This document shows positions 9,929 through 51,271 of a stretch of DNA of 64,000 nt, piece after piece. The first letter of the stretch is position 1, and the number at the start of each line of letters is the position of its first letter. Origin of the DNA: an uncultured delta proteobacterium (GTDB lineage Bacteria > Desulfobacterota > Desulfobacteria > Desulfobacterales > Desulfatirhabdiaceae); assembly GCA_963704205.1 (NCBI GenBank), contig CAVPHN010000023.1, forward strand, positions 1 to 64,000, in the 5' to 3' direction. The notes under the pieces were generated by a model. The model saw only the letters and a list, made by a program, of their open reading frames with translations, made no database searches and had not been told where the DNA came from. The translations under genes and the position numbers were made by a program.

Positions 9929-10685
9929 ATGATCAAATTATCACAGAAGGATGCATCCTGTACAGATTTGTCATTCTCGTCGGATGGTTTCCGGTTATCG
10001 GGGACCCTTCATTTACCTGGAATGCCTCTGCCACCGATTGTTGTGGGTTCGCACGGCCTGCTAAGCAGTGGCAGTTCACCCAAACAGATTGAATTGGCCA
10101 GGCAATGCAGCGAAAACGGCATGGCTTATTTTCCGGTTCGATCATCGCGGATGCGGCCATAGTGATGGCGGCAAGGCCGATGCCGCTGATTTTAACGGCC
10201 GTTGCCGGGACCTTCTCAGCGCTGTTGACTTTTTGAGAAACCTTGACTGCCTTAGCCCTGTGATAGGACTGTTCGGCAGCAGCCTGGGAGGGGCGGTTTG
10301 TCTTTCGGTAGCAGCCGCAACACGCGTCCATGCACTGGTTACCGTTGCCGCACCCCTTGACAGCAGCTCTTTGATTGATTCGGCTCAGGGTGTTGTCCCG
10401 GCCGGGCTTTCGGCGGATCTGGCACTTTCTCCCCGGTTTCGGTTCGATCTGTCGGACAGCCTGTCCGCTATCCGCAATCTCTTGATTTTTCATGGGGAAA
10501 ACGATTCGGTTGTACCGGTATCCCATGCCCGGAAACTGTTTGAAAAAGCAGGCCATCCCAAAAAACTGGTGATTCAGGAAAATGGAGATCATGTCATGAG
10601 CCTTCTCCTTCATCAGAAATTGTTCATGCAGGAATCCCTTTTGTGGTTTTCAACGATCCTGAAGACCGACCTGAAGAACAAATAG
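9929..10685 (+). CDS. Alpha/beta-fold hydrolase (dienelactone-hydrolase/S9-like), frameshifted near 10130
   Basis: N-terminal part in ORF 9929..10162. The remainder in ORF 10068..10685 carries the nucleophile elbow GLFGSSLGGAV, then ...IFHGENDSVVP and a histidine near the C-terminus (ENGDHV). Confidence 0.6.
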
Positions 10686-10705
10686 ATCAGGCCAAAGGAG
10701 TCATC

Positions 10706-13700
10706 ATGCCGGAAGAGCTTCCCAGACATTTTTTTACCAGAGCCTTTGTAAAAACCATCCTTCGCCGTTCGCTGGCGCTGGCAACCCTGGTGGGGCTTTT
10801 TTACGGTCTGTCAGCGCTGGTATATGCCACCCGGGCCATATTCAAAGTCAAAATGAATTACGCCGTGGTGCTGGAACGTTTTGGCGGCCACCGCGAGGCC
10901 ATCACGGACATCGGCTGGCATGTTCGCCTGCCGTATTTTACCCGCATTGAACAGGAAGTCTCCCTGATGAACCAGACACTGTTTCTGAGCGGAAGTCCGG
11001 AACCCATGAGAATTATTTCAAAGGAAAGCGTTGCGCTCTGGACATCGGCCGTGCTGACCTACCGGATTCGGGATCTGAAGACCTGGGCCATAGAGAATCT
11101 GGATCCCCTGCACCTGCTTCAGGGAGATTATGACGGCATTGTCAAGGACATCCTTCAGGCCCATGAGGTCAACCAGCTCATCAGCAGCCGTGAAAAAATC
11201 AAGGATGATATTTTTGTCGCCTTAAAATCCAGACCGATCAATGAAGGCGGCCCCACGCTTGAAAAAAAATACGGTATTGAAGTGGTGAGCTTTGTCCTGA
11301 AGGAAACCCGCTTTGGCGATAAACTGATTGAAGCCACGGAAGAAAAGAAACGCAGAGAGATGATCGCTGAAGCGGATAATTATTCGGCCGATCAGGAAGC
11401 CAGCCGGATTCGAAAGCTCTATGCCGCATATCTGGAAAGCATTCAATCCCTGCAGCAGGCCCTTGGCAGGCCGGACGGATCCACGGACGGGGCGCTTCTG
11501 CAGTTTCTGACCCAGCAGAAATGGGCCACGGCCTATGAAAAAAATGTTGAGGGCCAGAACACCATCGTGATTCAGAACACCCAGGATTCGCCGGCAATTA
11601 CCCTTCCCTCTGCTCAGCCTCACCGGAAACCCGACTGGAGAGCGGTAATGGCAAGAAGACTGACAAAAGAAGTCAGGTATATCAACCTTCCTGAAAAACG
11701 GATTGACGAAATCAGCCGGCTTGTGTCTTCCTGGCCGTATGAAACCAAAGCATTCATGCGCTCAAGACTGAATCAGTACAGCCCGCCGTCGGACTGGCTC
11801 AATACCCTGCTGGAAAATTTTCTTTCCTTCTTTTTTGCAGCCCCGGAAAAGCATTTTGTGATTCTGAAAGATCCGGAGATTCTGACCGACTGGCAGCGCC
11901 GTTTTGAAATTTCCGGAAAAACCAATCCTCAGCAGGCCTGGAACAAGATCCTGGAAAAGGAAGTATCGGCCAAGGACTATATCTATCTGCTGTCGCTTCT
12001 GGATAAGGATCTCAGCGACGTTCATGTTCCCGTGGAGCTGACAACGCTGTTTGATAAAATCTACCGGGCCCATATCCGGAAAGAATATCTTTCTGATCCG
12101 TCCGTTCCCAAGGCACCCCTGATTCTTTTTATCGGCCCGAGTGGCAGCGGCAAGACATCTACGGTCCGCCAGACCCTGGAGCAGGTTATTTTTGTCAACG
12201 AGGTGCGGCCCGAGGTGGATCTGGCGCAGAAAAAAGAAGAAGCCCTTGCCGGAGAACCTTTCTGGAAAACCATCGACCAGGTGGACCCAACCCTGGCAGC
12301 AGAAATCGCCAGACGGAAAAAAGCGTCTTTTTACAAATATCCTGGCCCAAGTGCCTGTAATCAGCCGCCTTCTGAAAAACCGGATCGGCAAAAATCTTTC
12401 TCAACTTGAAGAGCAGGGGGTTCTGGTCGATTACACCATGATCACCCCGAACGATTTCCAGACCGCCCTTGCCGGAGAACCCGGCAATTATTTCAAGAAA
12501 GCGCTGGGTGATCCGCGAAGAACAAGCATCCGTCATGTCGAAGAAGCGCACAGCGCTTTTGGAAAAATCGAAGGCAAGGACAGCAGCGGAACCGATCGTC
12601 AGCAGAGAACCCTGATCGATACCGCCAATATCGTGATCGATGAAATCATCAATGGCCGAAGAGACTGCCTGCTGATCGCCACGACGGATCAGCCCGAGCG
12701 CTTTGACCAGGCGATTTACCGGCGTTTTGTGGAAAAGGGAAAAATACTGGATCTGTCGGATTTCTGGAAAAATCCGGAAAACCTGACTGAAGTCGTTCGC
12801 CTGGAGCTGATGCGAAACGATATCGTGGTCACGGATACTCCCGATGACGTCTGTCTGCGCAACGCCCGGTGTATTTCTCCGTCCCAGGTGCGATCGGCTG
12901 TGGAAATAATCTATGTCATTTTTCAGGAAAGAACCCTTAAAATCACCCCGGCCTATGTTCGTAAGCTGGTTCATTCCATCATTGAAATACAGGGCGGCTT
13001 TTCGTCAGCCTACCTCGAGGATTCGCTTCTGGTGAGAAAAGCCTTTGAGCTGGTTGCCAGAAACGCTTTCGGCGATTTGTTCGAAAAAGTCGTGGACCGG
13101 ATGGACCGCCTCGTACACTGGGATGATTATGTGGGAAAAATAAAAGACGTGTTTTCGGAAATGGCGAACAATTGCCTTTATTACAACGTCAGCGAAGAGA
13201 AGGGCGTGGTGTTGAACGGCCCGCCGGGAAGCGGAAAAACCTTTCTTGTCCGGGCCTGGCTCAGCGAAAACAGCGATATTCACGATATCGCCACAAGCGC
13301 GTCCGCGCTTCAGGATCCGGTAAATCCGTGGGAAGGCGCGGTAGAGAACCTGGAAAAAGTCTATGACATCGCCAAAATGATTGCCCCTTCCCTGGTGTTT
13401 TTTGATGAAGGGGATTCCCTGGCGCCCCGTCGCAGTGCTTCCGGCGGCTCTCCTTCCGATAAACTGACCAATAAATTTTTGAATTTAATCGACGGCGAGA
13501 TCCCTCTCAACCAGGTGTTTACGGTTCTGACCACCAACCGGCTCGATATTCTGGATCCGGCCCTGATCCGGTCCAAGCGGCTGAAGGTGCAGACAATATC
13601 CGGCCATTTGCGGCTAAAGGATATTACGGATATTGTTCGACAGGCACTAAAGAATATTCCCCTGGCCCCTGAGCTCTCGATCGAAGCCATTGTGGAATCC

Positions 13701-15080
13701 GCCAAGGGACTCTGCAACACTCCGGCGGATTATTCGGCGTTTGTGGAAAAAGCCCGCTCGCTTCGCAGCACGGAATATGAAGTTCTGCTGCGGATTCGCG
13801 ACCTTGCCGATGATTCGAGTGCGATCCGTGATAAATTTGTCAAATTTAATTTTAAAACCCTGATGGGGATTCTTGAAGCTGTGGATGCGCCGCAGTCGCT
13901 TCGGTCCGCCGTTTATGGGGATCCTGCGGGGTTTTTGTCCCGCTATGGCGATGTGATCGAGTTGCTCAAACCGGTAACAAGTTTGGAAGGCTATCCGCTG
14001 ATGACTTCCCACCTGAATTCCGCCCGCCAGGAAATCTCTCACAGTCCGGTAAAAATAGGCAAAATGCAGCTCGATGATTTTCTGGAGGCCGAACTCAGTC
14101 AGGAACCTCAGGTGGGTTTTATTATCGGCGTGGGCGCAAGCGATGTGTCCGGCGTACTTCTTCCCATTGCCACCAGCCTGACTTACAGACTGTCCGCTGA
14201 AAAAGTTCTTGTCACAGGGGCTGTGTCATCCGGCTCCTCGGCAACAGCGGAACTCGACATGGCGGTTCAGATGACCCAGCAGTCTGCCCAGGAAGCCCTG
14301 ACAATGGTAAAAAACTATCTTCAGGAACTGGACCCCAAGGTCAGCATTCCCAAATTACTGGGTGATTTTCTCGATCGGTATACCATCCATCATCAGCTTC
14401 TTTCCGCATCCTACAACGTCGGCGGTCCATCCGCTGGCTATGCCCTTGCACTGAACACCCTGTCCGCACTGCTTCAGATTCCCATATATCACGATTTCGG
14501 GATTACCGGGGCGCCCTGGACCAAGGGCGTGAAAAAAGGCGAGGTAGGCGGCTCCGTCATCATCGGCGGGCATAAGAAAAAAACAGAAAAAGTCCTCCAG
14601 TATTTACGCAGAATGTATATGCCGCTTCAAAATTACAAAGATCTTGAAAATGAATTCCTGGTGAATTTCTGGGAACAGGGAAAAGACGTTCTTGGGGTTT
14701 CCAATTTTGGAGAACTGGTTCCGGAAGTCGTCTGCCTGGGACCGGAATATGAGGTGATACTGAAGGAACTGATTGCCATTCGGATAGAATATAAACTAAA
14801 AAAAACCGGTGGCAATTCCGCATATGATACGCATCGGGAAAAAATCCTGAAACTTAAGAAAATTCTGAAAGATCAGCTCGAGGCCCATATTGTGGATCGA
14901 CTCGAAGCCATTCGAAAATACCTCAGAAATCCTGTCAGCGATCCCCATCAGTCGCTGGATGAGATTTTTATGGAATATAAAAAATCCAAGCTTATCGGCA
15001 TATCACCGATTCTGAATTTTATGAGCAATCAGAAAAAATGGATAGGCCGCTGGTCCACCTGGGGGCGAAAACCGGAGTGA
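10706..15080 (+). CDS. Giant membrane-anchored SPFH/band-7 - AAA+ - AAA+ - Lon-type (S16) protease fusion protein (about 1460 aa; one frameshift at an A6 run near 12315)
   Basis: ATG at 10706 with AAGGAG 7 nt upstream. A TM helix (LALATLVGLFYGLSALVYA) is followed by an HflK/C-like SPFH domain (NYAVVLERFGG...IGWHVRLPYFTRIEQEVSLMNQTL...). AAA module 1 has Walker A LILFIGPSGSGKTSTV and Walker B IVIDEIINGRRD. AAA module 2 has Walker A VVLNGPPGSGKTFLVRA, Walker B LVFFDEGDSL and sensor-1 VLTTNRLDILDPALIRSKRL. The C-terminal Lon catalytic domain has NVGGPSAGYALALNTLSAL...ITGAPWTKGVKKGEVGGSVIIGGHKKKTEKV (Ser in PSAG, Lys in the GGHKKK motif). ORFs 10643..12409 and 12141..15080 overlap; both frames make sense on either side of the homopolymer. 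Confidence 0.75.
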
Positions 15081-22369: not shown

Positions 22370-22762
22370 TCACCCTTTTCGGTGACGATTCATGTCGGCG
22401 GGGCTGATAATATAGGCGACTTCCTGAATGGTGTTTTTCCCCAGCAGAAATTTGATGTATTCAACAGCCAGAACCGACTGCATCTGATACTGGCTGAGCT
22501 GGCTCAGATATGAACCGTCTTTCATGGTTTCGGCAATCAGCTTTGCGCCTGAGCCGGCATTGTCTCTGTATTTTTGCGACAAGTGGGTGATGTATTTCTT
22601 GACCTTGTCTCTGAGCTCGTCTGCCGAAAATGTTTTGATCACGGAAAATATCTCAGCCATTTTATCCGCTGCCGGAAGATAAGGGTTTTCCAGAATCTCT
22701 TTTACGGTTTCCGAGTAACGTTGAAGTCCTTTATAGATGTGCTGATTCTGAACCATATTCAT
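22370..22762 (-). CDS. Hypothetical protein (130 aa)
   Basis: ORF with no recognisable domain. Overlaps the upstream gene by 4 nt (ATGA), suggesting translational coupling. Confidence 0.4.
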   Translation of the reverse strand: MNMVQNQHIYKGLQRYSETVKEILENPYLPAADKMAEIFSVIKTFSADELRDKVKKYITHLSQKYRDNAGSGAKLIAETMKDGSYLSQLSQYQMQSVLAVEYIKFLLGKNTIQEVAYIISPADMNRHRKG

Positions 22763-23571
22763 ATCCGCCCATCCAGCCCGAAGCCATTTGAAAACGCCGC
22801 AGCGTACCTGACGGATCCTGCACCGTCCTGCTCTATGAATACCGATACGGTATAGGAATCATACATATAGGAATTCACCCATCCCAGCCCCGGTTTGTTC
22901 AGCCCGTTCTGGCCTGAATAGAAATAATCCCAGTTGCCGTCCTTTCCCAGAACCGCTCCTTTTTTGCCCACATCCGAAACGTTTATCTGCTTGGATACGG
23001 ATATCAGGGCAGGGCGGCCTTGATATTTACACAATATCAGGATGCGGTTCAGGTCATATCCATAATAAGCGCCGGTATTCAGATCCGGGGTGATTTCTTC
23101 ATGCTCCACCCCGGAGACCATGACCGGACGATCCAGCACCGCCAGCTTTGAAGCCAAATCCGGGAAGAGCTGATTTTTTCCGTTAATCTCTGTCCAGTAT
23201 GCCAGACGCACCGAAGAGGGTGAGAGAACAAATGGCGGAATATTGGGATTAAACCCGATATCAAGGATGTGCTTGAGATCTTTATGAATATCGAATTCAT
23301 GGTAGGCTGATGAGATGTTTGACCGGTTTTCAGGAAAATATAAGTCATCGTTGTTTTTCGACATCCGGACAAATTCAATGATGTTTTCAATCATAGCGGA
23401 ATCAAAAGTCTGGGAATGCCCGGGTTCAGCCAGGGACAAAAGATAGTTCAGTCCGGGATTAACGGATTCAGGAACCGGGACGTCCTTTCCGGACTTGTCC
23501 GAAGCCATTGCAAACGAGGCAAACGCGGTTAATAAAAAAAGAAATAGATATCGGATCAATGGGGTTGCCAT
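22759..23571 (-). CDS. Hypothetical secreted protein (270 aa)
   Basis: N-terminal signal peptide (MATPLIRYLFLFLLTAFASFAMA). No recognisable domain. Confidence 0.45.
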   Translation of the reverse strand: MATPLIRYLFLFLLTAFASFAMASDKSGKDVPVPESVNPGLNYLLSLAEPGHSQTFDSAMIENIIEFVRMSKNNDDLYFPENRSNISSAYHEFDIHKDLKHILDIGFNPNIPPFVLSPSSVRLAYWTEINGKNQLFPDLASKLAVLDRPVMVSGVEHEEITPDLNTGAYYGYDLNRILILCKYQGRPALISVSKQINVSDVGKKGAVLGKDGNWDYFYSGQNGLNKPGLGWVNSYMYDSYTVSVFIEQDGAGSVRYAAAFSNGFGLDGRI

Positions 23572-23613: not shown

Positions 23614-26268
23614 TCAGACGATGGCTTCCAGTAGTTTCTGAATCCGGGGAAGCTCATTTTCCGAAAAACAATACTGCATTTCCTGAAACCGTTTACGAAA
23701 TGCAGTGACCTGAGACTTGACCGGCTTATTCTGAACAATGACGTCATGCGTCAGTTCCGCCAGCGTTTGAAAATCCGTTTCCTTCATGCCGAAACGTGTC
23801 ATTTCGGCAACCCCCATTCGCAGGGCGCCTGAAGCCGTGAAGCCTTCTTCGTCCGGAGCTGCCTGATAATTCACGATAATGTGGTTGTCTTCCAGCCGCC
23901 TGGCCATTTCCGGCCCCCTGGCATACCCGACCGAGAGAATCACCTGATGGGTTTCGGTAAAGGAGATGGCCGGATCACCCGCCACATTCAGACCGCAGTC
24001 CTTAAGCGCCGCAGCAAATGCCTTGGCATTGTCAATCACCTGTTTCTGATAAGCGGTTTTGAATGCATTCATTTCATAGGCGGCCAGCAGCAGGCCAAGC
24101 AATGTTCCCAGGTGATGATTGCTGACAGAGCCTGGAAATGCCCTGCGCTCGATGGCTTCCCATAGCGGATACCGCACACAGTCCCGGCTGAAATCCGATG
24201 CAATAACCCCTCTCTGGGTGCCGAAAAAAGTTTTATGGGTTGAGCCCGTGACAATATCCGCGCCTTCCCGGAAAGGATCCTGGTAAAACGGACCGCAGAG
24301 TCCCAGTACATGCGCCATATCATATAATAGCACACAATCCAGGTTCTGTGAATCCACAAAAGAGCGGATATCTGCAATCGGTTCCCGGTGAAGAATCATG
24401 CTCTTGCCGAAAATAATCAATTCAGGCTGATAATCCGCGATCATTTTACAGGAAGCAGCCACATCGATCTGATAAGGGTTTTCTTCAAGAACCGGGAAAT
24501 TGATCACCGATGGTCTTTCGGTCTGCGGGTCCCGTGCGACATAATCTCTTAATGCGCCCATGGGCTGGGCGCTGAGATGACCCCCCTTAATGATATGGTG
24601 ATTCAGCACGCGGCGAATCCGGCGCTGTTCGCTTTTTCGATCTGAACGATTGAGATAATCACACAGCGCACTGAATACGCCCGTATTGGCCATCTGACCG
24701 GAAATCGGCCGGGTTTCCACCTGGCTGCATCCAAAATAGGCGCAAAGCTCTTTTTGAAGCAGCTGTTCGACCTTTTCAATGAAGTCCACGCCCTGATAGT
24801 AATAAATATCCGCCTCACTGAATGCCTTCATCTTCTTGTGTTCGGCATATCTTCCGGATGGGTCCAGCACGGAGAGCAACCGTACCAGTTTTGACGGGGT
24901 TTGCTCGGAGGGGATGAGGTTGATGCATTCCAGCCGGCGCCAGAGGCTGTTGCGGGCAGCATCATCAATGAGCGTGTCCACTTTCTTTCGAAGAACATCC
25001 TGGCCGGATGAAAGATCTGTTTCTGTCTGATAAAGCCGGTCGAACAAAATGGCCCTTGCAAAAGGAGGGGCTTCGCTTCTCAGGTGATAGGGAACGATTA
25101 CGGCCCGCGTCATTTTTCCGCGGATATCAACGTTCAGCACATCCCCTTCACAAAGGTCACTGTCCAGAAGGGCAAGCCCGACCGATCGCATGCCTTTTTC
25201 GGCGCTCAGCCGGGACAACATGCCCCGGCCTGTCACTTTCTGATAAGGAACCATTGTGCCGCTGGTGATATATCCTACGGGTTTGTTCCCATGATACACC
25301 TGACATCCGGAACGGATCACCCCTTTATCTGTAAGAGCCAGGGGAAAAATCATGCGGGGTAGATCCTGAATCCGGGAAAAATTCCGGTCCATGATTAATT
25401 TGAGTGCCTGAAACTGACGAAAAAGAGCGGGCTTTCCAATGGAGCCGGCTTTTAAATCGGAAAAACTGACCGCAATCCGGCTTAAGGGCATGGAAAAAAC
25501 GGGAATTTCATTTCCGTTTTCATCTGTTCCCAGTTCGTGACCATAGAGGGGAAGTCCGGCTTCAAGCCGAAGGGTGTCCCTGGCGCCAAGACCTGCGGGA
25601 CAGGCCCCGTTTTCAATCAGAAGCTTCCAGAGAACCGGGGCCGCATGGCCGGGAATAAAAAGTTCAAAACCCAGCGGTTCTCCGGTATAGCCGGTTCTGC
25701 TGATCCAGGTCGCAATGCCCTGAAGCGTTGCCGTGCTCGATCGGTTTTTCAATGGCTCCGGAAGATGGCCGGAATCCATGATTGCAGCAAGAATATCCCT
25801 GGATCGTGGTCCCTGAAGGCTTATCATCCCGGTATTTTCCGTGTTGTCGGTTAATTGGACATCAGGAAAATGGGCAAGCACGGCCTGGAAATGTGCCATG
25901 TCTTTTTCGCGGTTGGACGCATTGACGACCAGCAGATACGCATCCGGAACAAAACGGTAAAGATAGGCGTCGTCGATGGCACCGCCCTGCTCATTGGGAA
26001 TGAGCGTGTACTGGCTTTCTCCGACTTCCAGGCCGGCTGCATTGTTGGAAAGGACATGCTGAAGAAACGCCAGTGCTGACGGGCCGCTGATGTGGATTCG
26101 GCCCATGTGGGAGACATCGAAAATGCCGGCATGATTTCGGGTGGCAAGGTGTTCCTGAACAATTCCTGTCCGATATTGAATCGGCATGTCCCATCCGCCG
26201 AATGCCACCATCTGGGCGCCAAGCTTCACATGCTGATCATGGATAATGGTTTTGAGAAGCGGTTCCAT
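23614..26268 (-). CDS. Fusion protein: glycine-cleavage T-protein (aminomethyltransferase, GcvT) N-terminal half plus serine hydroxymethyltransferase-like (GlyA/SHMT fold-type I PLP) C-terminal half
   Basis: N-terminal region DQHVKLGAQMVAFGGWDMPIQYRTGIVQEHLATRNHAGIFDVSHMGRI matches GcvT. C-terminal region carries SHMT-like motifs (LLYDMAHVLGL; VTGSTHKTFFGTQRG with the PLP lysine; AFPGSVSNHHLGTLLGLLLA). A single uninterrupted 884-aa ORF. AAAGGGGGG SD upstream of the ATG at 26268. Confidence 0.75.
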   Translation of the reverse strand: MEPLLKTIIHDQHVKLGAQMVAFGGWDMPIQYRTGIVQEHLATRNHAGIFDVSHMGRIHISGPSALAFLQHVLSNNAAGLEVGESQYTLIPNEQGGAIDDAYLYRFVPDAYLLVVNASNREKDMAHFQAVLAHFPDVQLTDNTENTGMISLQGPRSRDILAAIMDSGHLPEPLKNRSSTATLQGIATWISRTGYTGEPLGFELFIPGHAAPVLWKLLIENGACPAGLGARDTLRLEAGLPLYGHELGTDENGNEIPVFSMPLSRIAVSFSDLKAGSIGKPALFRQFQALKLIMDRNFSRIQDLPRMIFPLALTDKGVIRSGCQVYHGNKPVGYITSGTMVPYQKVTGRGMLSRLSAEKGMRSVGLALLDSDLCEGDVLNVDIRGKMTRAVIVPYHLRSEAPPFARAILFDRLYQTETDLSSGQDVLRKKVDTLIDDAARNSLWRRLECINLIPSEQTPSKLVRLLSVLDPSGRYAEHKKMKAFSEADIYYYQGVDFIEKVEQLLQKELCAYFGCSQVETRPISGQMANTGVFSALCDYLNRSDRKSEQRRIRRVLNHHIIKGGHLSAQPMGALRDYVARDPQTERPSVINFPVLEENPYQIDVAASCKMIADYQPELIIFGKSMILHREPIADIRSFVDSQNLDCVLLYDMAHVLGLCGPFYQDPFREGADIVTGSTHKTFFGTQRGVIASDFSRDCVRYPLWEAIERRAFPGSVSNHHLGTLLGLLLAAYEMNAFKTAYQKQVIDNAKAFAAALKDCGLNVAGDPAISFTETHQVILSVGYARGPEMARRLEDNHIIVNYQAAPDEEGFTASGALRMGVAEMTRFGMKETDFQTLAELTHDVIVQNKPVKSQVTAFRKRFQEMQYCFSENELPRIQKLLEAIV

Positions 26269-26400
26269 AAAGCCCCCCTTTATTCATAGGTTGATATGCC
26301 GGGTATAGCTCTTTGTCAGGAAAAAACGTGTTGCGTGTGCGAAATGCAACGCTGTTGATAGTGGCGCGAGTTGCTGGCCCATCCGTCACGTCTTCATAAG

Positions 26401-26429
26401 ATAATAGAAAATGCAGGCAGAGGTGTCAA
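26401..26429 (-). promoter_or_regulatory. Candidate sigma70 promoter for the gcvT-SHMT fusion gene
   Basis: On the minus strand: TTGACA (26424..26429), 17 nt, TATTAT (26401..26406). Confidence 0.3.
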
Positions 26430-26479: not shown

Positions 26480-26518
26480 GAAGAGGGGGCTGTCGGCGGA
26501 TGCCGGCAGCCCCTCTTC
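26480..26518 (-). terminator. Rho-independent terminator downstream of htpG
   Basis: Perfect 13-bp GC-rich stem (GAAGAGGGGGCTG / CAGCCCCCTCTTC) with a 14-nt loop. A U-containing tract (AUUUUCUACGAUUU) follows on the minus strand. Confidence 0.55.
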
Positions 26519-51194: not shown

Positions 51195-51271
51195 TGGTGG
51201 CGATGCAGGGATTTGAACCCCGGACACTGCGGATATGAGCCGCATGCTCTGACCAACTGAGCTACATCGCC
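51195..51271 (-). tRNA. tRNA with CAT anticodon (elongator tRNA-Met or tRNA-Ile2/lysidine)
   Basis: 77 nt: GGCGATGTAGCTCAGTTGGTCAGAGCATGCGGCTCATATCCGCAGTGTCCGGGGTTCAAATCCCTGCATCGCCACCA. Fits the cloverleaf (7-bp acceptor, GTAGCTCAGTTGG D-arm, anticodon loop CTCATAT, GGTTCAAATCC T-loop, encoded CCA). G1-C72 is paired, so it is not an initiator. Confidence 0.85.

What the first reader, a model, noticed from the sequence alone, without database searches (positions are those of the whole stretch)
23614..26268. Fused aminomethyltransferase (GcvT) and SHMT-like protein
One uninterrupted 884-aa ORF carries an N-terminal GcvT region (FGGWDMPIQY…AGIFDVSHMGRI) and a C-terminal SHMT-like fold-type I PLP domain (YDMAHVLGL; GSTHKTFFGTQRG; AFPGSVSNHHLG). 

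GcvT produces 5,10-CH2-THF and SHMT consumes it to convert glycine to serine. A covalent fusion could channel the one-carbon unit, which is relevant to glycine-serine interconversion and reductive-glycine-type metabolism. This is a clean ORF in a window full of frameshifts, which argues the fusion is not an artefact.
Basis: partly seen in the sequence, partly recalled or inferred. Interest (0 to 1): 0.6.

Follow-up and report, generated by a model that had tools for sequence, protein, structure and literature searches.

The report
Fused glycine-cleavage T-protein and SHMT enzyme
One intact gene joins the T-protein of the glycine cleavage system to an archaeal-type serine hydroxymethyltransferase; this conserved two-enzyme protein probably links glycine breakdown to serine formation, occurs in many anaerobic bacteria and some tiny archaea, is labelled only "GcvT" in databases, and I found no paper describing it.

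Summary
Window 23614-26268 on the minus strand is one 884-aa ORF. Residues 1-393 are a full-scoring GcvT, 394-430 a linker, and 431-884 an SHMT-family PLP domain. It is not an assembly artefact. At least 120 protein clusters and 80 verified species genomes share the full architecture, out of 570 or more candidates, mostly Desulfobacterales. Both halves are under purifying selection (dN/dS 0.08-0.17). About a third of bacterial loci place the fusion beside gcvH, gcvPA/PB, lipA, lplA or lpd, often in the gcvT slot with no other gcvT nearby. The SHMT half is archaeal-type, about 34% identical to M. jannaschii SHMT and 27% to E. coli GlyA. It keeps every catalytic residue, but the folate-contacting Asn347 is Gln. 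All fused forms, plus stand-alone forms encoded next to gcvT or gcvP, make one clade (bootstrap 97). Woesearchaeota carry fused and split versions at one syntenic site. AlphaFold2 gives a confident compact model (pLDDT 91.7, pTM 0.88). Best reading: a bifunctional T-protein/SHMT for glycine-serine interconversion. Channelling of methylene-THF is plausible but untested. No describing paper was found. I rate it a new variant of a known kind, of moderate interest.

The parts
23614..26268 (-). Complete CDS of the GcvT-SHMT fusion (884 codons plus TAA/stop codon at 23614-23616)
   Evidence: ORF list and translation. Full-length homologues at 63-95% identity. Codon map.
25516..26241 (-). GcvT folate-binding domain (aa 10-251). 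Includes the catalytic Asp100 codon at 25969-25971.
   Evidence: Pfam GCV_T E 7e-81. The E. coli D97N mutant entry 3a8k differs from wild type at the residue aligned to D100. D99/D100 are invariant in 61 fused sequences. Foldseek TM 0.89 to T. maritima T-protein.
25090..25341 (-). GcvT C-terminal barrel domain (aa 310-393)
   Evidence: Pfam GCV_T_C 34.1 bits vs cut-off 25.9. NCBIfam GcvT models align over aa 5-394.
24979..25089 (-). Inter-enzyme linker (aa 394-430). Contains the conserved R397-S-E-A-P-P402 motif, followed by a variable stretch.
   Evidence: Conservation profile. Modelled as a beta-hairpin 396-406 with pLDDT about 86-88, and only 411-430 is lower. dN/dS 0.14-0.34.
23617..24978 (-). 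Archaeal-type SHMT (fold-type I PLP) domain, aa 431-884. Key codons: PLP-Lys679 at 24232-24234; His564 at 24577-24579; Asp650 at 24319-24321; Arg817 at 23818-23820; Gln802 (E. coli Asn347 position) at 23863-23865.
   Evidence: Pfam SHMT E 8e-34. Best PDB relatives are M. jannaschii SHMT 4bhd/4uqv at 185 bits. Residue table against verified E. coli GlyA. Foldseek TM 0.88-0.90.
26401..26429 (-). Sigma-70-type promoter-like site, TTGACA-17-TATTAT (11 of 12), about 130 nt upstream of the ATG
   Evidence: Consensus scan. Hexamers and most of the spacer are identical in L001, L005 and L006, while the leader is not conserved. Function is inferred.
26273..26281 (-). Shine-Dalgarno-like AAAGGGGGG, 4 nt upstream of the ATG
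   Evidence: Read directly from the sequence. The GGGGG core is conserved in relatives.
26486..26513 (-). G+C-rich hairpin (GGGGCTGCCGG...CCGACAGCCCC) followed by a T-rich tail, just after the htpG stop. Likely the htpG terminator, separating the fusion from the upstream gene.
   Evidence: Read directly from the sequence. The stem is conserved in relatives. It was not reported by the terminator scan, so this is an inference.

Best explanation
The gene encodes a bifunctional enzyme.

The N-terminal ~393 residues are the T-protein (aminomethyltransferase) of the glycine cleavage system. This half takes the aminomethyl group from lipoyl-GcvH and, with tetrahydrofolate, releases NH3 and 5,10-methylene-THF. 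The reaction is reversible.

The C-terminal ~450 residues are a PLP-dependent serine hydroxymethyltransferase of an archaeal-type clade that is dedicated to the glycine cleavage system. This half interconverts glycine plus methylene-THF with serine plus THF.

The two halves are held in a fixed, compact arrangement by a short, partly conserved linker. Together with GcvH, GcvP and Lpd encoded elsewhere in this genome, the protein would catalyse 2 glycine + NAD+ -> serine + CO2 + NH4+ + NADH, or the reverse, with folate recycled locally.

What is shown: the architecture, catalytic-residue conservation, purifying selection, genomic linkage to gcvH/P/lpd/lipoylation genes, clade structure, and the confident compact model.

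What is inferred: both activities, use of THF, dimerisation through the SHMT core, the physiological direction, and any direct hand-over (channelling) of methylene-THF. I put channelling at about 0.35.
For: - Domain and family scores: GcvT is above the curated cut-offs, and SHMT is above the Pfam gathering score.
- Catalytic Asp100 maps to E. coli D97 and is invariant.
- The SHMT residues S35, Y55, E57, Y64, Y65, H126, D200, H203, H228, K229, F357 and R363 are all conserved.
- dN/dS is 0.08-0.17 in both halves.
- In L004 the order is AsnC-type regulator, fusion, gcvH, gcvPA, gcvPB, lplA, lipA.
- 29 of 83 bacterial loci have gcvH/P within reach. In 11 of them gcvH follows the fusion on the same strand, 10 of these at 35-316 nt.
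- Only one locus has a second gcvT-like gene within 10 kb.
- An unbiased neighbour census finds only GcvP, GcvH, LipA, LplA, Lpd and AsnC as recurrent functional partners.
- A glycine riboswitch lies directly upstream of the fusion in L016.
- L-serine dehydratase beta and alpha lie directly downstream in L047.
- Stand-alone members of the same SHMT clade sit next to stand-alone gcvT (18-bp gap in L085-L087, with a truncated upstream ORF in L088; 4-nt overlap in L092-L093, with a truncated upstream ORF in L094). In L092/L093 they also lie near lipA and lpd.
- Fused and split forms occupy the same syntenic site in Woesearchaeota.
- The clade of all fused plus GCS-adjacent forms has bootstrap 97.
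- The AF2 model has pLDDT 91.7 and pTM 0.88. Each half superposes on T-protein or M. jannaschii SHMT at TM about 0.9.
Against: - No enzyme activity was measured.
- The window (64 kb) and its closest relatives carry no gcvH/P near the fusion. For this organism the link to the glycine cleavage system rests on homologues.
- The SHMT half is below NCBIfam's GlyA cut-off (240 vs 335).
- The SHMT half has Gln at the THF-contacting Asn347 position, plus an 8-10 residue insertion beside the folate loop. Cofactor use could therefore differ.
- Its nearest characterised relatives are selective for H4MPT or sulfopterin (PMC3697235).
- The riboswitch was found in only 1 of 15 loci scanned, and the serine dehydratase link in one locus.
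- If flux runs serine to 2 methylene-THF, or in the reductive glycine direction, both sites use folate in the same sense and nothing is channelled.
- The model is a monomer prediction of a protein whose SHMT core is expected to dimerise. I could not inspect its coordinates.
Confidence: 0.78

Rival explanations
1. The enzyme is the same bifunctional protein but works biosynthetically, in the reductive glycine pathway. The T half helps make glycine from methylene-THF, CO2 and NH3. The SHMT half adds a second methylene-THF to give serine. Both sites consume methylene-THF, so the fusion gives co-expression and co-localisation, not channelling.
For: - The glycine cleavage system is reversible (established knowledge).
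- Desulfobacterota are a group for which this pathway is discussed (PMC12827605).
- One stand-alone clade member lies directly after formate dehydrogenase alpha (TIGR01591, 743 bits) in a cluster that also has a GcvP fragment.
Against: - The glycine riboswitch (L016) points to glycine consumption where any regulatory or pathway clue exists, as does the downstream serine dehydratase (L047).
- No fhs, folD or formate dehydrogenase recurs next to the bacterial fusions in the census.
- PMC12827605 does not mention the fusion.
Confidence: 0.25
2. The GcvT-like half is not a T-protein acting with GcvH. Instead it is a folate 'capture' module for the PLP half, as in dimethylglycine oxidase, sarcosine oxidase or TMAO demethylase. 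The SHMT-like domain, with its altered folate site (Asn347 to Gln), would cleave serine, and the C1 unit would be trapped on THF bound in the GcvT fold.
For: - GcvT-fold domains do serve this role in DMGO, sarcosine oxidase and TMAO demethylase, which appear as weaker hits.
- The fused clade has a signature Asn-to-Gln change and an insertion next to the folate loop.
- Many loci, including the window, lack adjacent gcvH/P.
Against: - The N half passes the GcvT equivalog cut-offs, while the demethylase and oxidase models score far below theirs.
- The fusion occupies the gcvT position in operons that have gcvH and gcvP but no other gcvT.
- E57, Y64, Y65, H126 and F357 of the SHMT folate and catalytic site are retained.
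Confidence: 0.08
3. The C half is a different SHMT-fold PLP enzyme, such as a threonine aldolase or transaldolase, or an alpha-methylserine type enzyme, and not a serine hydroxymethyltransferase.
For: - The L-threonine transaldolase ObiH (7k34) is the third-best PDB sequence hit (105 bits) and a good fold match (TM 0.84).
- The SHMT half is below the curated GlyA cut-off.
Against: - M. jannaschii SHMT scores far higher (185 bits).
- The fluorothreonine transaldolase model scores 126 against a cut-off of 650.
- The folate-dependent catalytic set is intact.
- Genomic partners are glycine cleavage genes, not natural-product clusters.
Confidence: 0.05
4. The long ORF is an assembly or frameshift artefact, or a decaying pseudogene, that joins two neighbouring genes.
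For: - The adjacent downstream gene in this window does carry a frameshift.
- Naturally separate gcvT + SHMT gene pairs exist in some archaea.
Against: - The same 880-890-aa architecture occurs in at least 120 clusters and 80 independent genome assemblies from several phyla.
- Both halves are under purifying selection.
- The linker motif is conserved.
- The whole-chain model is confident.
Confidence: 0.01

Closest known systems
Glycine cleavage system T-protein (aminomethyltransferase GcvT, EC 2.1.2.10), e.g. T. maritima 1woo, B. subtilis 1yx2, E. coli 3a8i
   Same: - The N half has the GCV_T and GCV_T_C domains.
- It exceeds both NCBIfam GcvT cut-offs.
- It keeps the catalytic Asp.
- It superposes at TM 0.89.
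- In relatives it sits in the gcvT slot of gcvT-H-P operons.
   Different: - It is about 30-40 residues longer through insertions (around aa 250-305 and 343-360).
- It is covalently followed by a second enzyme.
- In this window it is not next to gcvH/P.
Archaeal SHMT (M. jannaschii, PDB 4bhd/4uqv), an H4MPT-dependent enzyme
   Same: - It is the best solved relative of the C half (185 bits, about 34% identity, TM 0.88-0.90).
- The PLP-lysine motif GSTHKTFFG is identical.
- Gln is shared at the E. coli R235 position.
   Different: - The fused clade has Gln instead of Asn at E. coli position 347.
- It has an 8-10 residue insertion between E57 and Y64, and a further insertion after the GGH motif.
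- It is found mainly in bacteria and is fused to, or encoded beside, gcvT.
- Pterin specificity is unknown.
Canonical bacterial GlyA (E. coli SHMT, 1dfo)
   Same: The same fold and the same catalytic residues.
   Different: - Only about 26-29% identity.
- It lies on a long separate branch.
- The fusion's C half is below the NCBIfam GlyA cut-off.
GcvT-fold folate domains fused to C1-releasing enzymes: dimethylglycine oxidase/dehydrogenase (1pj5, 4pab), sarcosine oxidase alpha (2gag), TMAO demethylase (9q5a)
   Same: A GcvT-fold THF-binding module is covalently coupled to a partner enzyme, so that a one-carbon unit ends up on folate.
   Different: - In those enzymes the GcvT-like module is C-terminal and divergent, and it works without GcvH.
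- Here it is N-terminal, scores as a true T-protein, and is linked to gcvH/P.
- The partner here is itself a folate enzyme.
Non-covalent GDC-SHMT coupling in plant mitochondria (photorespiration), and classic fused folate enzymes (DHFR-TS, FolD, formiminotransferase-cyclodeaminase)
   Same: The reaction pair is the same (2 Gly -> Ser + CO2 + NH3), and so is the logic of keeping consecutive folate steps together. This comparison rests on established knowledge, not on tests made here.
   Different: - In plants the two activities are separate proteins.
- None of the known fused folate enzymes combines a T-protein with SHMT.

Membership tests
GcvT (glycine cleavage T-protein) | GCV_T folate-binding domain plus GCV_T_C barrel | tested here: met
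   Pfam GCV_T 271.6 bits and GCV_T_C 34.1 bits, both above the gathering scores. Foldseek TM 0.89 to 1woo/1wos.
GcvT (glycine cleavage T-protein) | Score above the curated whole-protein cut-off of the GcvT models | tested here: met
   NF001567 312.9 vs 300; TIGR00528 252.9 vs 235.85.
GcvT (glycine cleavage T-protein) | Catalytic aspartate (E. coli D97 / human D101) | tested here: met
   D100 aligns to the position mutated in 3a8k (D97N). It is invariant in 18 and in 61 fused sequences.
GcvT (glycine cleavage T-protein) | Genomic association with gcvH and gcvP | tested here: inconclusive
   Met for the family: 29 of 83 loci, and the fusion is often the only gcvT in the operon. Not met in this 64-kb window or its three closest relatives. 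The rest of the genome could not be searched.
GcvT (glycine cleavage T-protein) | GcvH-dependent aminomethyl transfer to THF | not testable with these tools
   This needs an enzyme assay.
SHMT (serine hydroxymethyltransferase, fold-type I PLP) | SHMT domain above the Pfam gathering score, and an SHMT fold | tested here: met
   PF00464 117.4 bits vs 27. TM 0.88-0.90 to 4uqv.
SHMT (serine hydroxymethyltransferase, fold-type I PLP) | PLP-binding lysine and catalytic set (E. coli S35, Y55, E57, Y65, H126, D200, H203, H228, K229, R363) | tested here: met
   All are conserved in the window protein and invariant across 61 fused sequences. The E. coli reference sequence was verified as identical to 1dfo_A.
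SHMT (serine hydroxymethyltransferase, fold-type I PLP) | THF-binding residues (B. stearothermophilus Asn341/Tyr60/Phe351 = E. coli N347/Y64/F357) | tested here: inconclusive
   Tyr (Y490) and Phe (F810) are kept, but Asn is replaced by Gln802 in nearly all fused and gcvT-adjacent forms. The residues are named in PMC3697235 ref. 49. The effect on pterin choice is unknown.
Canonical bacterial GlyA subfamily (NCBIfam NF000586) | Score above the curated cut-off | tested here: not met
   240.2 bits vs cut-off 335. About 27% identity to E. coli GlyA. It sits on a separate long branch.
Archaeal-type SHMT radiation | Closest characterised and solved relative is archaeal SHMT, and the domain groups with archaeal-type sequences in a tree | tested here: met
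   4bhd/4uqv 185 bits vs 105 or less for all others. In the NJ tree the domain falls among archaeal-type SHMTs, with E. coli as a distant outgroup. Deep nodes inside that radiation are poorly supported (2-27%), so the exact sister group is unresolved.
GCS-associated SHMT clade (defined here) | Monophyly of SHMT domains that are fused to gcvT or encoded beside gcvT/gcvP | tested here: met
   A clade of 23 sequences with bootstrap 97 contains all fused forms plus P0125, P0132, P0155 and P0170. Three of those four were checked and lie beside gcvT or in a cluster with gcvP. P0155 was not checked.
Threonine/fluorothreonine transaldolase | Score above the curated cut-off of TIGR04506 | tested here: not met
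   126.4 bits vs 650.

The most novel reading that the evidence does not exclude
The fusion and its split relatives define a previously unrecognised 'glycine-to-serine synthase' module, found in bacteria and in DPANN archaea.

In this reading a rigid T-protein/SHMT bienzyme has a remodelled folate pocket (Asn347 to Gln, plus a clade-specific loop). A single folate molecule is held and shuttled between the two active sites, almost like a prosthetic group. Glycine cleavage would then be coupled to serine synthesis without drawing on the free one-carbon pool. That would be especially useful in organisms with small or absent folate pools, such as Woesearchaeota.
Probability: 0.2. Interest if true: 0.75.

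Novelty: new variant of a known kind. Interest (0 to 1): 0.55.

Why it matters
The glycine cleavage system and SHMT form the core of glycine/serine catabolism, of photorespiration, and of the reductive glycine pathway that is being engineered for formate and CO2 assimilation.

A natural, widespread, rigid fusion of the T-protein with SHMT gives a direct experimental handle on a long-standing question: is methylene-THF handed over between these two steps? It could also serve as a ready-made scaffold for pathway engineering.

There is an annotation problem as well. Hundreds of genomes label the 880-aa protein only as "GcvT", or as "hypothetical" in archaea. Metabolic reconstructions therefore miss an SHMT activity, or may wrongly assume the organism's only SHMT is a canonical glyA.

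The clade-specific change at a folate-contacting residue raises a testable question about cofactor specificity, because the domain's nearest characterised relatives use H4MPT.

Tried and rejected
- **First structure prediction.** The 18-sequence alignment gave an unusable model (pLDDT 58.8, pTM 0.41). It was replaced by the 61-sequence run.
- **Glycine riboswitch as a general regulator.** It was found in only 1 of 15 loci and not in the window. The window's leader is not conserved among close relatives. I therefore dropped the idea of a conserved riboswitch here.
- **The 400-aa gene downstream as a conserved partner.** It is a lineage-specific secreted protein, downstream of the fusion in 7 of the sources searched and elsewhere in the locus in L014, and not a family-wide partner.
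- **Co-occurrence with canonical glyA or a second gcvT.** tblastn with the verified E. coli GlyA against 1.38 Mb of held loci found only the fused or split SHMT halves. With both halves of the fusion as queries, only L008 has a second gcvT-like gene, and it scores below the GcvT cut-offs. Whole genomes could not be searched, so the question stays open.
- **Literature.** Eight full-text searches and three papers probed by term search found no description of the fusion. The library does not cover most subscription journals, so this is absence of evidence only.
- **First bootstrap run.** The Biopython distance calculator timed out. The tree was redone with a numpy Kimura-distance NJ.
- **Suspected second frameshift at 10643-15080.** These are two different genes, Band_7 and AAA+Lon_C.
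Full report
**1. Observation**

The finding's coordinates hold exactly. The ORF lies on the minus strand: 23614..26268, ATG start, 884 codons plus a stop. The plus-strand translation of the same interval is full of stops.

Pfam places GCV_T at aa 10-251 (E 7e-81), GCV_T_C at 310-393 and SHMT at 429-838 (E 8e-34). NCBIfam scores the N half above both curated GcvT cut-offs (312.9/300 and 252.9/235.85). It scores the C half as SHMT, but below the GlyA cut-off (240/335).

**2. Not an artefact**

A search of 5.8 billion proteins returned at least 120 clusters (90% identity) of 880-934 aa with the same domains, at 63-95% identity. Where a source gives a name, it is "aminomethyltransferase" or "GcvT".

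Of these, 570 were confirmed as relatives, and the best 80 all cover residues ~1-880. The 80 are mostly Desulfobacterales/Desulfobacteraceae. They also include:
- Desulfobulbales: Desulforhopalus singaporensis DSM 12130 and Desulfocapsa
- Syntrophobacter
- Pirellulales
- Acidobacteriota
- several Gammaproteobacteria: Woeseiaceae, Xanthomonadales, Wenzhouxiangellaceae, Chromatiales
- Caldilineaceae
- Spirochaetales

The window's nearest relatives are Desulfobacteraceae MAGs (83-90% aa identity).

Against close relatives, dN/dS is 0.12-0.17 for the GcvT half, 0.08-0.13 for the SHMT half and 0.14-0.34 for the linker. Both halves are therefore maintained by selection. The window does contain at least one real frameshift, in the very next gene (22373-23571; intact at 400 aa in L001/L005/L006). 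That makes the intact 2.65-kb frame more telling.

**3. What each half is**

*N half.* The best solved relatives are T-proteins of B. subtilis, T. maritima and E. coli (205-169 bits). The E. coli D97N mutant entry differs from wild type exactly at the residue aligned to D100 of GGAIDD. D99 and D100 are invariant in 61 fused sequences.

*C half.* It is much closer to M. jannaschii SHMT (185 bits, motif GSTHKTFFG identical) than to any bacterial or eukaryotic SHMT (90 bits or less) or to the transaldolase ObiH (105 bits). I verified that my recalled E. coli GlyA sequence is identical to 1dfo_A and mapped residues against it. S35, Y55, E57, Y64, Y65, H126, D200, H203, H228, K229, F357 and R363 are all conserved.

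The C half differs from canonical SHMT in three ways:
- N37 is Gln.
- N347 is Gln (VNYQ in place of VNKN).
- There is an 8-10 residue insertion between E57 and Y64.

N347 corresponds to B. stearothermophilus Asn341. A review lists Asn341 with Tyr60 and Phe351 as the residues studied for THF binding. The same review states that characterised archaeal SHMTs prefer H4MPT or sulfopterin (PMC3697235).

**4. Genomic context**

In the window the gene lies between htpG (upstream) and a frameshifted secreted protein of unknown function, then minE-minD-minC. This synteny is shared with L001, L005 and L006. No gcvH, gcvP or second copy of either half occurs in the 64 kb.

Elsewhere the picture is clear. 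In L004 the order is AsnC-type regulator, fusion, gcvH, gcvPA, gcvPB, lipoate ligase, lipoyl synthase. Overall, 29 of 83 bacterial loci have gcvH/P within reach, as do 11 of the 32 loci with at least 5 kb on both sides. Arrangements:
- 11 with gcvH downstream on the same strand, 10 of them at 35-316 nt
- 11 divergent
- 5 upstream on the same strand
- 2 downstream on the opposite strand

Only L008 has a second gcvT-like gene nearby, and it scores below the GcvT cut-offs.

An unbiased clustering of all ORFs around the fusions found few recurrent functional neighbours: GcvPA/PB (27 loci), GcvH (20), LipA (11), LplA (11), dihydrolipoyl dehydrogenase (7; TIGR01350, 494 bits) and the AsnC-type regulator (6). 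In Desulfocapsa (L057) the order is AsnC, gcvH, gcvPA, gcvPB, lplA, lipA, lpd, fusion.

Three further clues:
- A glycine riboswitch lies directly upstream of the fusion in a Pirellulales MAG (L016; 57.4 bits against a gathering score of 32). It was found in only 1 of 15 loci scanned.
- In a Caldilineaceae MAG (L047), L-serine dehydratase beta and alpha follow the fusion directly.
- In three Gammaproteobacteria the fusion lies with a transketolase-like TPP enzyme and a class I/II aminotransferase. One Acidobacteriota locus has the aminotransferase only. This is unexplained.

**5. A dedicated SHMT clade, fused and split**

An exhaustive HMMER search of 1.84 billion representatives with the C half found fusion-length proteins (870-961 aa) down to 37% identity. 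Some come from Candidatus Woesearchaeota and are named "hypothetical protein". The search also found stand-alone proteins of 416-485 aa.

The context of the stand-alone proteins:
- P0132/P0271 (457 aa) lies 18 bp downstream of a stand-alone 438-aa gcvT in three assemblies (L085-L087). In a fourth (L088) the upstream ORF is cut off by the contig end and has no Pfam call.
- P0170 (470 aa) follows a stand-alone gcvT with a 4-nt overlap in two assemblies (L092, L093). In a third (L094) the upstream ORF is truncated. In L092/L093, lipoyl synthase (389 bits against a cut-off of 310) and dihydrolipoyl dehydrogenase lie within 4 kb.
- P0125 follows formate dehydrogenase alpha, in a cluster with a GcvP fragment.

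The Woesearchaeota fusion locus L090 is syntenic with the split-gene loci L085-L087 (VKOR, DoxX, diphthamide synthase | gcvT/SHMT | NAD synthase ... DnaJ, DnaK, GrpE). Fusion or fission therefore happened in place.

In a neighbour-joining tree (411 columns, 100 bootstraps), all fused forms plus these stand-alone forms make one clade with 97% support. The clade sits among archaeal-type SHMTs, with E. coli GlyA on a long outgroup branch. Deeper nodes are weak. The Asn347-to-Gln change tracks this clade.

**6. Structure**

With a 61-sequence alignment, AlphaFold2 gives mean pLDDT 91.7 and pTM 0.88 over all 884 residues. No segment is below 50. The conserved linker motif forms a beta-hairpin at 396-406.

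By the way pTM is defined, two equal-sized domains placed independently would give roughly 0.5. The model therefore predicts a fixed mutual orientation. This is my inference, and it concerns a monomer model of a protein whose SHMT core is expected to dimerise.

Foldseek superposes the N half on T-proteins (TM 0.89) and the C half on M. jannaschii SHMT (TM 0.88-0.90). No PDB chain covers both halves (best query-normalised TM 0.44). I could not access the coordinates to measure the distance between the sites.

**7. Mechanism and direction**

The best-supported reading is a bifunctional glycine-cleavage T-protein/SHMT.

Shown: the architecture, intact catalytic sets, purifying selection, linkage to H, P and L proteins and to lipoylation genes, a dedicated clade, and a confident compact model.

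Inferred: both activities, THF as the carrier, and the direction of flux.

The few regulatory and pathway clues (riboswitch, serine dehydratase) favour glycine -> serine (-> pyruvate). In that direction the T site makes the methylene-THF that the SHMT site uses, so hand-over is possible.

There are two alternatives. In complete oxidation of serine, both sites release methylene-THF. In the reductive glycine pathway, both sites consume it. In neither case is anything channelled, and the fusion would only ensure co-expression and proximity. I put the bifunctional reading at about 0.78, direct channelling at about 0.35, and a mainly reductive role at about 0.25.

**8. Comparison and novelty**

Both halves belong to known families. 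The N half is a member of GcvT by every sequence test available. The C half is a member of the SHMT family, but not of the canonical GlyA subfamily.

The combination resembles the logic of other GcvT-fold fusions (DMGO, sarcosine oxidase, TMAO demethylase) and of fused folate enzymes. The partner and the domain order differ.

NCBIfam (June 2026) has no fusion-specific model; only the separate GcvT and SHMT models hit. Sources name the protein GcvT or hypothetical. Eight full-text searches found no description. The library lacks most subscription journals, so prior mention cannot be excluded.

I rate it a new variant of a known kind, with interest 0.55.

**9. Limits**

- There are no activity data.
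- I had no whole-genome view, so co-occurrence with canonical glyA, stand-alone gcvT and gcvH/P in this organism is unknown.
- The tree uses a simple distance method.
- The structural inference rests on summary confidence scores only.

Noticed in passing
window 22373-23571 (-): The gene directly downstream of the fusion is split into 270-aa and 130-aa ORFs by a frameshift near 22800. In L001, L005 and L006 it is one 400-aa protein with a signal-peptide-like N terminus and no Pfam or other family match. It is conserved downstream of the fusion only in this lineage (also L010, L015, L022).
   Followed up: yes
L096 3132-5801 and L097 760-3429 (protein P0133): This 889-aa GcvT-SHMT fusion has an intact frame, but its SHMT half has lost its key catalytic residues: PLP Lys to His (GSAHHTFFG), H126 to Leu, H203 to Gln, E57 to Thr. 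It was seen in two sequencing runs. It may be a pseudo-enzyme domain kept for structural reasons.
   Followed up: partly
L027 7620-9947, L032 2401-4794, L068 960-3287 and adjacent genes; L013 8504-10039: In three Gammaproteobacteria the fusion is preceded on the same strand by a 776-798-aa transketolase-like TPP enzyme. A ~445-aa class I/II aminotransferase lies beside it. The Acidobacteriota locus L013 has the aminotransferase only. This may be a different serine/glycine-linked pathway, and it is unexplained.
   Followed up: partly
L095 1056-12154: This cluster has a NuoF-like subunit, formate dehydrogenase alpha (TIGR01591, 743 bits), a stand-alone SHMT of the fused clade (4-nt overlap), an epimerase, an aminotransferase, a cysteine-synthase-like PLP enzyme, NAD kinase and a GcvP fragment. 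It looks like a reductive-glycine-type gene set, on a contig named with '3x' coverage.
   Followed up: partly
L008 4086-5363: One Desulfobacteraceae MAG has both the fusion and a divergent stand-alone gcvT-like gene (425 aa; 34% identical; 206 bits against a cut-off of 300). The stand-alone gene lies between the AsnC-type regulator and gcvH-PA-PB.
   Followed up: partly
window 26401-26429 (-) and alignment A3: The promoter-like TTGACA-17-TATTAT site upstream of the fusion, including most of its spacer, is identical in four relatives. The ~130-nt leader is variable. This suggests control at the promoter by an unidentified factor.
   Followed up: partly
window 51198-51271 (-): A tRNA gene (Rfam RF00005, 69.8 bits). 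It is the only Rfam family found in the window at gathering threshold.
   Followed up: no
window 10643-15080 (+): Two long ORFs overlap by about 270 nt: Band_7/SPFH (588 aa) and AAA+Lon_C (979 aa from a GTG). The relative L001 has a 1142-aa AAA/Lon_C gene. The true start of the window's gene, or a frameshift, is unresolved.
   Followed up: partly
L016 5101-5340 (+): A cobalamin riboswitch (64.2 bits) lies about 4.5 kb upstream of the glycine riboswitch, fusion and gcvHP operon in the Pirellulales MAG.
   Followed up: no
L089 15474-17339 (-): The SufB/D gene of the Woesearchaeota contig carries a LAGLIDADG_3 domain hit, suggesting an intein-containing SufB.
   Followed up: no
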